3,658 bases of DNA from Escherichia coli (GTDB taxonomy: Bacteria; Pseudomonadota; Gammaproteobacteria; Enterobacterales; Enterobacteriaceae). Location of the stretch: the NCBI RefSeq assembly GCF_003334815.1, contig NZ_QOWO01000081.1; one strand, written 5' to 3'. Both the position numbers and the translations under genes were made by a program. Positions within the stretch are counted from its first letter, which is position 1. Every line of letters starts with the position of its first letter. This document shows, piece by piece, positions 872-978 of the stretch. The notes beneath the pieces are model-generated. The model was not told the origin of the DNA and ran no database searches. It worked only from the letters and a program-made list of their open reading frames with translations.

Positions 872-933
872 GAAATGCGAAGACCCCACTCGTTAATCCA
901 TTAACTCGTGAGGTCTGCATGAAGTTCCTAGCA
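872..933 (-). ncRNA. srnC: Candidate Sok-like antisense RNA (SrnC/PndB-type antitoxin) opposite the toxin mRNA leader
   Basis: The - strand promoter (-35 TTGACC, -10 TACAAT) points leftward with a predicted start near 933. The transcript would be complementary to the leader-ORF start region and contain the hairpin formed by 887-910. The 3' end is not defined by a clean U-tract, so the left boundary is approximate. Confidence 0.4.
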
Positions 934-978
934 GTTCTGATTGTAGCCTCTTCCTTGCAGAGAGGTCAAAGTTTATGA
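919..978 (+). CDS. Short leader reading frame (19 codons, MKFLAVLIVASSLQRGQSL) overlapping the toxin start; analogue of mok/pndC
   Basis: ATG at 919 is preceded by GAGG (910-913). Its TGA stop (976-978) overlaps the toxin ATG (975-977), the coupling arrangement expected for hok-family loci. Confidence 0.45.
   Translation: MKFLAVLIVASSLQRGQSL
940..969 (-). promoter_or_regulatory. Candidate promoter for the Sok-like antisense RNA
   Basis: Read on the - strand: TTGACC (+ coordinates 964-969), an 18-nt spacer, then TACAAT (+ coordinates 940-945). It lies inside the leader ORF and points toward the toxin mRNA 5' region. Confidence 0.45.

What the first reader, a model, noticed from the sequence alone, without database searches (positions are those of the whole stretch)
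872..969. Candidate Sok-like antisense RNA with its own promoter inside the leader ORF
A reasonable sigma70 promoter on the - strand (TTGACC, 18 nt, TACAAT) fires leftward from inside the 19-codon leader ORF. The transcript would cover the leader-ORF start and the hairpin at 887-910, the expected target geometry for an antitoxin RNA blocking leader translation. The 3' end lacks a clean U-tract, so the RNA length is uncertain.
Basis: inference. Interest (0 to 1): 0.45.

Follow-up and report, generated by a model that had tools for sequence, protein, structure and literature searches.

The report
SrnC antisense antitoxin RNA gene
This is the well-known plasmid gene for SrnC, a roughly 60-base antisense RNA that keeps the SrnB killer toxin silent while the plasmid is present; here it is an uncommon sequence variant that genome annotation leaves unlabelled.

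Summary
A minus-strand promoter (TTGACC, 18 nt, TACAAT; 969-940) lies inside a 19-codon leader ORF (919-978), upstream of a Hok/Gef toxin gene (975-1124). The locus is about 96% identical to the srnB/srnC killer locus of plasmid F and sits in the same position next to the IncFII replicon. The promoter is identical to F's, and the antisense hairpin differs by one base. The predicted RNA (932 to 873, minus strand, 60 nt) has a 12-nt unpaired 5' tail, one stable hairpin and a weak U-rich end, like the 64-nt Sok RNA. In srnB, hok and pnd the hairpin is 4-9 kcal/mol more stable on the antisense strand. The poor U-tract is shared with Sok and PndB. The promoter motif alone is not significant, since 27% of shuffled windows contain one as good. 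No transcript data exist for this allele. One extra finding: the 5' tail (922-936) is a variation hotspot, with 12 haplotypes in 132 loci and diversity 4.6 times background. The window's tail is rare (3 of 132 loci). One-base indels there switch the leader ORF between two forms.

The parts
940..969 (-). P_srnC, the promoter of the antisense RNA: -35 TTGACC (969-964), 18-nt spacer, -10 TACAAT (945-940).
   Evidence: 10/12, best site in the window. Identical in F. The -10 box is invariant in 12 plasmid alleles, and the only -35 change goes toward consensus. hok (TTGCGC-17-TATCCT) and pnd (TTGCCT-17-TACTAT) have the same geometry. F's PsrnC has been used experimentally as a constitutive promoter (PMC12390103).
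873..932 (-). Predicted SrnC antisense RNA, about 60 nt. Both ends are inferred by analogy with Sok and have not been mapped.
   Evidence: Folds at -21.8 kcal/mol with z -4.14. The anatomy is the same in all alleles, in Sok and in PndB. The same stretch on the plus strand gives only -16.3 kcal/mol.
921..932 (-). Single-stranded 5' tail of SrnC (GCUAGGAACUUC), the presumed first-contact recognition element. It overlaps the variation hotspot at 922-936.
   Evidence: 12 nt are unpaired in the MFE and centroid structures. The Sok tail is 11 nt and makes the first contact with the target loop (PMC1635323; PMC4485353).
875..920 (-). SrnC stem-loop, which probably also acts as the terminator hairpin. 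It is complementary to the leader Shine-Dalgarno and start codon.
   Evidence: It is 4-9 kcal/mol more stable on the antisense strand in srnB (window and F), hok and pnd. Diversity is only 0.028.
919..978 (+). Leader ORF (the srnB' / mok equivalent), 19 codons. Its Shine-Dalgarno GAGG is at 910-913 and its stop TGA (976-978) overlaps the toxin ATG (975-977).
   Evidence: In F and in about 75% of loci a 1-nt longer hotspot puts this ORF in frame with the toxin, giving 68 aa.
975..1124 (+). srnB toxin gene (49 aa, Hok/Gef family).
   Evidence: Pfam PF01848, model positions 1-42 of 42, E 1.4e-9. RefSeq names it a Hok/Gef family protein. It differs from F SrnB by 1 residue.
796..823 (+). Probable srnB mRNA promoter (TAGTCA, 16 nt, TATTAT with an upstream TG). 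The mRNA 5' end is at about 830.
   Evidence: The Rfam model begins at 830. The 5' end at 830-838 is the exact complement of 1181-1189.
830..887 (+). 5' hairpin of the toxin mRNA (the tac-stem equivalent).
   Evidence: Diversity is 0.015. The role is assigned by analogy with hok (PMC9841398).
905..955 (+). Target hairpin in the refolded mRNA. GAGG (910-913) pairs with CCUC (948-951), and the loop carries the leader AUG and the hotspot.
   Evidence: The Rfam consensus structure and the local fold. The inner helix is poorly paired in this allele.
1181..1189 (+). fbi-like element CAGACACCC, the exact complement of the mRNA 5' end GGGUGUCUG (830-838). It marks the likely 3' end of the full-length mRNA.
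   Evidence: a 9-nt exact complement, and an extended duplex of -26.9 kcal/mol. The end-pairing model comes from PMC1635323 and PMC9841398.

Best explanation
Window 873-969 (minus strand) is the srnC gene of an srnB/srnC post-segregational killing locus (hok/sok family, type I toxin-antitoxin) on an IncFII-type plasmid. The steps below are marked as shown here, from the literature, or inferred. (1) The toxin mRNA starts near 830. Its 5' end pairs with 1181-1189, which keeps the full-length mRNA closed. The complementarity is shown here; its role is inferred from hok. (2) Slow 3' trimming lets the 5' hairpin (830-887) form. This exposes the leader Shine-Dalgarno and AUG (910-921) in a target hairpin (inferred). 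(3) SrnC is made constitutively from TTGACC-18-TACAAT as an RNA of about 60 nt. Its 12-nt single-stranded 5' tail contacts the target loop, and the duplex then spreads over the leader Shine-Dalgarno and AUG. That blocks leader translation and therefore the coupled translation of srnB, and RNase III destroys the duplex. The geometry and fold are shown here; the mechanism comes from the literature on hok, srnB and pnd. (4) When the plasmid is lost, the short-lived SrnC disappears. Ribosomes then translate the 19-codon leader, stop at the TGA that overlaps the srnB ATG, and reinitiate. The membrane toxin kills the plasmid-free cell (inferred).
For: Homology: the locus is about 96% identical to F srnB/srnC, with an identical promoter and a hairpin differing by 1 nt. 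It occupies the same position upstream of copB/repA2. It is found on about 2,900 plasmid records and in 2,007 of 5,426 complete E. coli genomes. Family: Rfam RF01794 scores 83.8 bits against a gathering score of 59, and the toxin matches Pfam HOK_GEF over the full model. Anatomy: a 60-nt RNA with a 12-nt free tail plus a hairpin, -21.8 kcal/mol, z -4.14, matching Sok at 64 nt with an 11-nt tail (PMC1635323). Strand signature: the hairpin is -20.3 to -21.2 kcal/mol on the antisense strand against -11.6 to -16.1 on the sense strand in srnB, hok and pnd, because G.U pairs occur only on the antisense strand. Conservation: the promoter and hairpin are nearly invariant while the tail between them varies. 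The promoter geometry is shared with hok and pnd. On the mRNA side there is a 9-nt exact 5'/3' complement. Literature: srnB-srnC is a hok/sok homologue regulated by antisense RNA (PMC4147584, which cites Nielsen 1991 and Gerdes 1992). SrnC expressed from its own constitutive antisense-strand promoter delays SrnB killing (PMC12390103).
Against: There are no transcript data for this allele. The 5' end (about 932) and the 3' end (about 873) are placed by analogy only. The promoter motif alone is not significant, since 27% of shuffles contain one as good. The terminator has no canonical U-tract and the scan does not detect it. Two substitutions found only in this rare allele (G934 and T936, where all other haplotypes have C and A) lie at positions -2 and -4 relative to the predicted start, and their effect on initiation is unknown. 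The Rfam 'sok' hit lies on the toxin-sense strand, so it supports the locus but not the antisense gene itself.
Confidence: 0.92

Rival explanations
1. The srnC gene is present by descent but is weakened or non-functional in this rare allele. The two allele-specific substitutions next to the start site, or the altered tail, would reduce transcription or target binding.
For: G934 and T936 are seen only in this haplotype, which accounts for 3 of 132 loci. The allele is rare: 16 of 2,713 plasmid records. The inner helix of the target hairpin pairs poorly in this allele.
Against: The toxin ORF, the 5' mRNA element and the fbi element are all intact. Without a working antitoxin such a locus would be lethal, so its persistence on complete plasmids from different hosts implies that SrnC works. 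The tail and its target change together automatically because they are the same DNA. The -35 box, spacer and -10 box are untouched.
Confidence: 0.05
2. The promoter-like motif is a chance match and the inverted repeat serves only as part of the toxin mRNA fold. No antisense RNA is made.
For: A motif of at least 10/12 appears in 27% of shuffled windows. The plus strand also forms a hairpin with z -3.58.
Against: The hexamers are conserved across alleles while the adjacent 16 nt vary freely. hok and pnd have the same promoter geometry despite different sequences. The hairpin is consistently more stable on the antisense strand. The antisense RNA of the nearly identical F locus is established experimentally.
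Confidence: 0.02
3. The minus-strand promoter drives a protein-coding gene (ORF 920-678, 80 aa), as the 'protein sok' or 'hypothetical protein' annotations in some records suggest.
For: An 80-aa minus-strand ORF starts at 920. Comparable CDSs are annotated in CP063717 as 'protein sok' and in CP042629 as a hypothetical protein.
Against: The ATG sits inside the stem of the predicted terminator hairpin and has no Shine-Dalgarno sequence. The ORF would have to read through that hairpin and across the toxin promoter. RefSeq does not call it in the identical record. Sok is established as a 64-nt non-coding RNA.
Confidence: 0.01

Closest known systems
srnB/srnC locus of plasmid F (RepFIC-adjacent; NC_002483 about 2780-3140)
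   Same: It is the orthologous locus. Identity is about 96%, the P_srnC -35 box, spacer and -10 box are identical, and the SrnC hairpin differs at 1 nt. The toxin differs by 1 residue, the tac-like and fbi-like elements are the same, and the position upstream of copB/repA2 is the same.
   Different: The SrnC 5' tail differs: GCUAGGAACUU here and GUUAAGGUACUU in F, which amounts to about 3 edits in 11-12 nt. The predicted pairing of the window's tail is -18.2 kcal/mol on its own target and -5.2 on the F target. The window's leader ORF has 19 codons and ends in an ATGA overlap, whereas F's leader is in frame with srnB and gives 68 aa.
hok/sok of plasmid R1 (parB)
   Same: The architecture matches: a Hok/Gef toxin, a leader ORF (mok), an antisense promoter inside the leader ORF with the -10 box abutting GGC, and an antisense RNA of about 60 nt with a 5' tail and one hairpin. 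The weak U-tail, the 5'/3' mRNA end-pairing and the variation hotspot in the antisense tail are also shared.
   Different: The sequences differ, and the toxin is only about 39% identical to Hok by tblastn. mok overlaps most of hok in another frame, while this leader is short and ends at the toxin start. There are 18 nt between the -10 box and the complement of the leader start codon here, against 12 nt in hok.
pndA/pndB of R483 and IncI-type plasmids
   Same: It belongs to the same family and has the same geometry, including a PndB hairpin that is more stable on the antisense strand.
   Different: The promoter (TTGCCT-17-TACTAT), tail and hairpin sequences differ, and the toxin is about 48% identical.
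Sib/Ibs and CopA/CopT (antisense systems whose short recognition regions set specificity)
   Same: The principle is the same: variation confined to the first-contact region of a cis-encoded antisense RNA could separate otherwise similar systems. The Sib paper (PMC2943612) was listed. CopA is present in this window at 1794-1885.
   Different: These are unrelated RNAs and targets. For srnC alleles, discrimination has been predicted here only from pairing energies and has not been tested.

Membership tests
hok/sok-family antisense antitoxin RNA (Sok / SrnC / PndB) | Encoded antisense to the 5' leader of a Hok/Gef toxin mRNA and overlapping the translation start of the leader ORF. | tested here: met
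   The predicted RNA at 932-873 (minus strand) covers the leader Shine-Dalgarno (910-913) and ATG (919-921). The toxin matches Pfam PF01848.
hok/sok-family antisense antitoxin RNA (Sok / SrnC / PndB) | Its own sigma-70 promoter inside the leader ORF, conserved among relatives. | tested here: met
   TTGACC-18-TACAAT scores 10/12. It is identical in F and conserved in 12 alleles, and hok and pnd have an equivalent promoter. The motif alone is not significant.
hok/sok-family antisense antitoxin RNA (Sok / SrnC / PndB) | An RNA of about 60-65 nt with a single-stranded 5' tail of about 11 nt, one stable stem-loop and a short U-rich 3' end. | tested here: met
   The prediction is 60 nt with a 12-nt tail and a hairpin of -21.8 kcal/mol, z -4.14. 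The reference anatomy is from PMC1635323. The ends are predicted, not mapped.
hok/sok-family antisense antitoxin RNA (Sok / SrnC / PndB) | The hairpin is selected on the antisense strand. | tested here: met
   The antisense strand is 4-9 kcal/mol more stable than the sense strand in srnB (window and F), hok and pnd.
hok/sok-family antisense antitoxin RNA (Sok / SrnC / PndB) | The toxin mRNA carries the fold-back control elements (5'/3' end pairing of tac/fbi type, and a 5' hairpin). | tested here: met
   830-838 is the exact complement of 1181-1189, with a duplex of -26.9 kcal/mol, and a 5' hairpin forms at 830-887. The Rfam leader model scores 83.8 bits.
hok/sok-family antisense antitoxin RNA (Sok / SrnC / PndB) | The antisense transcript is detected, is short-lived, and its duplex with the mRNA is cleaved by RNase III. 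| not testable with these tools
   This is established for F srnB/srnC in the literature (Nielsen 1991 and Gerdes 1992, as cited in PMC4147584; a functional assay is in PMC12390103). No data exist for this allele. No mapped transcription start was found in the pAA dRNA-seq supplements.
srnC specifically (orthologue of the F plasmid gene) | Nucleotide-level orthology and synteny with F srnB/srnC. | tested here: met
   Identity is about 96% across the locus and the neighbouring copB/repA2-CopA-tap genes are the same.
Rfam RF01794 'sok' | A hit above the gathering score on the strand of the antisense RNA. | tested here: not met
   The score is above gathering (83.8 against 59), but the hit is on the toxin-sense strand at 830-985. 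The same holds for R1-type hok, pnd and F srnB, each running from the mRNA 5' end to the toxin AUG. The model describes the mRNA leader, so this reflects the model's orientation and is not evidence against the RNA.

The most novel reading that the evidence does not exclude
The 5' tail of SrnC, and likewise of Sok, would be a specificity module that is actively diversified among F-like plasmids. Because tail and target loop are the same DNA, any change keeps the cognate pairing but loosens pairing with other alleles. A co-resident or incoming plasmid with a different tail then could not protect cells that lose this plasmid. On this reading the window carries a rare specificity class, and the leader peptide is only a ribosome-delivery device whose frame can flip freely. 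Supporting results: 12 tail haplotypes in 132 loci; diversity of 0.153 against 0.034 background; 42% of pairs with near-identical backbones differ in the tail; tail divergence is 3-6 times that of third codon positions; cognate tail pairing averages -17.2 kcal/mol against -7.2 for non-cognate; and the same hotspot occurs in R1-type hok/sok. Not excluded: simple absence of constraint combined with recombination, since the downstream spacer is nearly as variable. The roughly 48 nt of fully shared complementarity in the hairpin may also still allow cross-inhibition.
Probability: 0.35. Interest if true: 0.45.

Novelty: already known. Interest (0 to 1): 0.15.

Why it matters
The finding itself is textbook plasmid biology: SrnC is the antitoxin RNA of the F-type srnB killer locus. 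Two practical points follow. First, RefSeq annotates only the toxin CDS at this locus, although the locus sits on about 2,900 plasmid records and in about 37% of complete E. coli genomes, and Rfam's 'sok' model marks the sense-strand leader instead of the antisense gene. The antitoxin gene is therefore missing from annotation, and in some records it is replaced by spurious CDSs. Second, if the tail hotspot does set specificity, srnB/srnC and hok/sok alleles would form cross-immunity groups. These could influence which resistance plasmids can displace or coexist with each other. They would also decide whether anti-Sok oligomers aimed at the tail (PMC1635323) work only on particular alleles.

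Tried and rejected
(1) I rejected using the Rfam 'sok' hit as direct proof of the antisense RNA, because it lies on the toxin-sense strand in the window and in all three reference loci. (2) Accessions AP001918 (F) and KY749247 (R1) are not in the collections. I used NC_002483 for F and R1-type hok loci found by tblastn instead. R100 lacks the locus at this site. (3) NCBIfam Hok models score below their curated cut-offs (36.6 against 89, and 31.3 against 73), so I used Pfam. (4) Literature searches for a mapped SrnC 5' end, for transcriptome evidence on F-like plasmids, and for earlier descriptions of tail variation or cross-talk among hok-family alleles found nothing usable. The primary papers (Nielsen 1991; Thisted 1994, PMC395038) are not held. 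(5) I checked the YUNR U-turn motif in the target loop by eye. CUAG at 928-931 and CUGA at 937-940 both fit, but the motif is expected about once per 16 nt by chance, so I did not use it. (6) I did not attempt a formal covariation count on the hairpin. Only three independent hairpin forms (SrnC, Sok, PndB) were available, so I used the strand-asymmetry comparison instead. (7) My first allele sample was chosen by identity class and was therefore biased, so I repeated the hotspot analysis on a flank-anchored metagenome sample. The anchors fix 904-921 and 937-950 in that sample, and I excluded those columns from the comparison.

Full report
**What the window is.** The 3,658-bp window is a segment of an IncFII-type conjugative plasmid.
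- It is 100% identical over the tested 481 bp to E. coli plasmid p2010C_5028-3 (NZ_CP074882).
- From left to right it holds the end of a DUF2726 gene, a 102-aa hypothetical ORF, a Hok/Gef toxin gene (975-1124), copB/repA2 (1408-1656), the CopA antisense RNA (1794-1885, minus strand, 101.9 bits), the tap leader peptide, repA1 and the origin region.
- RefSeq annotates only the toxin CDS at the site of the finding and lists no RNA gene.

**Checking the observation.**
- The promoter scan reports TTGACC (969-964), an 18-nt spacer and TACAAT (945-940) on the minus strand. At 10 of 12 matches it is the best site in the window.
- The promoter lies inside a 19-codon ORF (ATG 919 to TGA 978) whose stop overlaps the toxin ATG at 975 as ATGA.
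- A leftward transcript would cover the leader Shine-Dalgarno GAGG (910-913), the leader ATG and the inverted repeat. What follows the repeat, UUCGCAUUUCUGG, is not a clean U-tract, and the terminator scan does not report it.
- The motif alone is weak evidence. A site of at least 10/12 appears in 27% of dinucleotide shuffles of the window.

**Identity of the locus.** The locus is the srnB/srnC killer system.
- It aligns at about 96% identity with the srnB locus of plasmid F (NC_002483). There the Hok/Gef gene at 2926-3075 sits directly upstream of the RepFIC copB/repA2 gene, the same arrangement as here.
- The minus-strand -35 box, spacer and -10 box are identical to F. The inverted repeat differs at one base. 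The toxin differs by one residue.
- The toxin matches Pfam HOK_GEF over the whole model with E 1.4e-9.
- The locus is common: about 2,900 plasmid records and 2,007 of 5,426 complete E. coli genomes, almost always on plasmids.
- The literature describes srnB-srnC of F and pndA-pndB of R483 as hok/sok homologues regulated by antisense RNAs (PMC4147584, citing Nielsen 1991 and Gerdes 1992).

**The predicted RNA.** I placed +1 at the eighth base after the -10 box (G932), by analogy with Sok, and the 3' end after GCAUUU (873).
- This gives a 60-nt RNA with a 12-nt unpaired 5' tail, one stem-loop (920-875) and a short U-rich end. It folds at -21.8 kcal/mol with z -4.14.
- Sok is a 64-nt RNA with a stable stem-loop and an 11-nt single-stranded tail that makes the first contact with a loop in the refolded hok mRNA (PMC1635323; PMC4485353).
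- Sok and PndB, taken from R1-type and pnd loci, have the same anatomy and equally poor U-tails.
- All three promoters share the same geometry: -35 box, 17-18 nt spacer, and a -10 box directly abutting a conserved GGC.

**Evidence that the minus strand is the functional one.** An inverted repeat folds on both strands, so I compared them.
- In srnB (window and F), hok and pnd, the hairpin is -20.3 to -21.2 kcal/mol on the antisense strand and only -11.6 to -16.1 on the mRNA-sense strand (for the window).
- The reason is that G.U pairs and a tandem G.A loop occur on the antisense strand, and these become C.A and pyrimidine mismatches on the sense strand.
- The three hairpins also keep the stem through different pair types at equivalent positions (structures).
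- This direction-specific signature appears in three diverged family members and supports a structured minus-strand RNA.

**The mRNA side.** A plus-strand promoter (796-823) places the mRNA 5' end near 830.
- GGGUGUCUG (830-838) has an exact 9-nt complement at 1181-1189, with an extended duplex of -26.9 kcal/mol. A 58-nt 5' hairpin (830-887) is predicted.
- These correspond to the tac and fbi elements of hok mRNA. There, end-pairing keeps the full-length mRNA closed until slow 3' trimming allows refolding, translation and Sok binding (PMC9841398; PMC1635323).
- Rfam's 'sok' family (RF01794) hits the window at 830-985 with 83.8 bits, but on the plus strand. It does the same in R1-type hok, pnd and F srnB, always from the mRNA 5' end to the toxin AUG.
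- The model therefore describes the toxin mRNA leader. It confirms the locus family but not the antisense gene.

**Mechanism.** SrnC is made constitutively and is short-lived.
- Its tail contacts the target loop, and the duplex spreads over the leader Shine-Dalgarno and AUG.
- Leader translation is blocked, and with it the coupled srnB translation. RNase III then removes the duplex.
- After plasmid loss SrnC decays and the stable mRNA is translated. Ribosomes finishing the 19-codon leader at the ATGA overlap restart at srnB, and the toxin kills the plasmid-free cell.
- The geometry, folds and complementarities are shown here. The kinetic and enzymatic steps are taken from work on hok, srnB and pnd.

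**What is unusual about this copy.** The differences from F are not spread evenly. They cluster between the leader ATG and the -10 box, which is the SrnC tail.
- In 12 plasmid alleles, 14 minimal changes fall in 17 columns, against 0.05-0.13 per column in the flanking hairpin, promoter and CDS (binomial p = 2e-7).
- That sample was chosen by identity class, so I repeated the analysis on a metagenome scan anchored on the conserved flanks. It gave 132 loci with 12 tail haplotypes. The F type occurs in 65 and the window's type in 3.
- Only 16 of 2,713 plasmid records match the window's 116-nt segment at 99% or better.
- Nucleotide diversity at 922-936 is 0.153 against 0.034 background. It is 0.028 in the hairpin and 0.015 in the 5' mRNA hairpin. 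Only 1 of 366 other 16-column windows is as variable.
- Among pairs of loci that differ at just 1-2 of 364 backbone positions, 42% have different tails. Tail divergence is 3-6 times that of third codon positions and 1.5-1.8 times that of the downstream spacer among close pairs.
- R1-type hok/sok alleles show the same pattern.
- Predicted tail-target pairing averages -17.2 kcal/mol for cognate pairs and -7.2 for non-cognate pairs. The window's tail gives -18.2 on its own target and -5.2 on F's.
- One-base indels in the hotspot flip the leader ORF between a 19-codon form with the ATGA overlap (33 of 132 loci, including the window) and a form in frame with the toxin (99 of 132, including F). This happens even between otherwise identical backgrounds. 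The leader peptide sequence is therefore not what selection preserves.

**Interpreting the hotspot.** One reading is that the tail acts as a specificity module diversified to avoid cross-protection by related plasmids. I did not find this described in the accessible literature. Relaxed constraint is the other reading: any mutation preserves cognate pairing, because tail and target are the same DNA. Combined with recombination it remains a live alternative. The shared roughly 48-nt hairpin complementarity may also still permit cross-inhibition. I put the specificity reading at about 0.35.

**Verdict.** The feature is the already-known srnC antitoxin RNA gene of an F-type srnB/srnC locus, carried here as a rare tail allele. 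The missing evidence is a transcript for this allele. Two allele-specific substitutions at -2 and -4 relative to the predicted start (G934 and T936) are untested. Interest in the finding as stated is low. The tail hotspot and the annotation gap are the only parts worth following up.

Noticed in passing
window 922-936 (and the equivalent segment in L002, L004-L013 and L016 onward): There is a variation hotspot confined to the predicted SrnC 5' tail and target loop. It has 12 haplotypes in 132 loci and diversity of 0.153 against 0.034 background, while the adjacent promoter and hairpin are nearly invariant. The window's haplotype is rare (3 of 132 loci; 16 of 2,713 plasmid records).
   Followed up: yes
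window 919-978; L002, L004-L013: The leader ORF has two forms that differ by 1-nt indels in the hotspot. One has 19 codons and ends in an ATGA stop/start overlap (window; 33 of 132 loci). The other is in frame with the toxin and gives a 68-aa product (F; 99 of 132). L011 and L012 differ in leader-ORF form through a 1-nt indel, on otherwise closely similar backgrounds.
   Followed up: yes
window 830-985 (+); L014 432-603; L015 446-603; L002 2780-2936: Rfam RF01794, labelled 'sok antitoxin', matches the toxin-sense strand from the mRNA 5' end to the toxin AUG in every locus tested. The model represents the hok-family mRNA leader and not the roughly 60-nt antisense RNA.
   Followed up: yes
L001 (NZ_CP074882), L138 (CP063717) 1-152 (-), L006 (CP042629) 279-461 (-): RefSeq/PGAP annotates neither SrnC nor CopA as RNA genes in the identical record. 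Some GenBank records instead carry minus-strand CDSs named 'protein sok' or 'hypothetical protein' over the antisense and leader region. These are probably mis-annotations.
   Followed up: partly
L013 (NZ_OX030702) about 405-455; L011 and L012; h3-haplotype metagenome loci: Several loci are decayed. In L013 an IS150 insertion removes the toxin promoter and half of the SrnC hairpin. L011/L012-type loci have a replaced 5' mRNA arm (no tac element) and a 44-aa truncated toxin, yet keep the SrnC promoter and hairpin. They may be antitoxin-only remnants.
   Followed up: partly
window 1794-1885 (-), 1408-1656, 1903-1977, 1958-2827: This is a complete IncFII replication control region: CopA antisense RNA (Rfam 101.9 bits), copB/repA2, the tap leader peptide and repA1. 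All of it is known biology, and it provides a second cis-antisense system in the same window.
   Followed up: partly
window 720-770 (+): A long near-perfect hairpin (CAACGCCGGAAACGGGAAAAAGC...GCTCCCGGCGTT) is followed by TTTTT, just after the 102-aa ORF. It is probably the intrinsic terminator of the upstream operon. It produced spurious weak microRNA hits in Rfam, and the terminator scan did not list it.
   Followed up: no
L003 (R100, NC_002134) 7424-8508: R100 has no srnB/srnC locus between the DUF2726 gene and copB, so the killer cassette is a presence/absence polymorphism among IncFII plasmids at this site. The 102-aa hypothetical ORF (window 388-696) has no NCBIfam match.
   Followed up: no
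L002 (plasmid F) 1670-1782 (-): There is an Rfam hit to AS-pc02 ('Antisense to pHK01_099', 87.3 bits) about 1 kb upstream of srnB in F. The hit lies outside the window.
   Followed up: no
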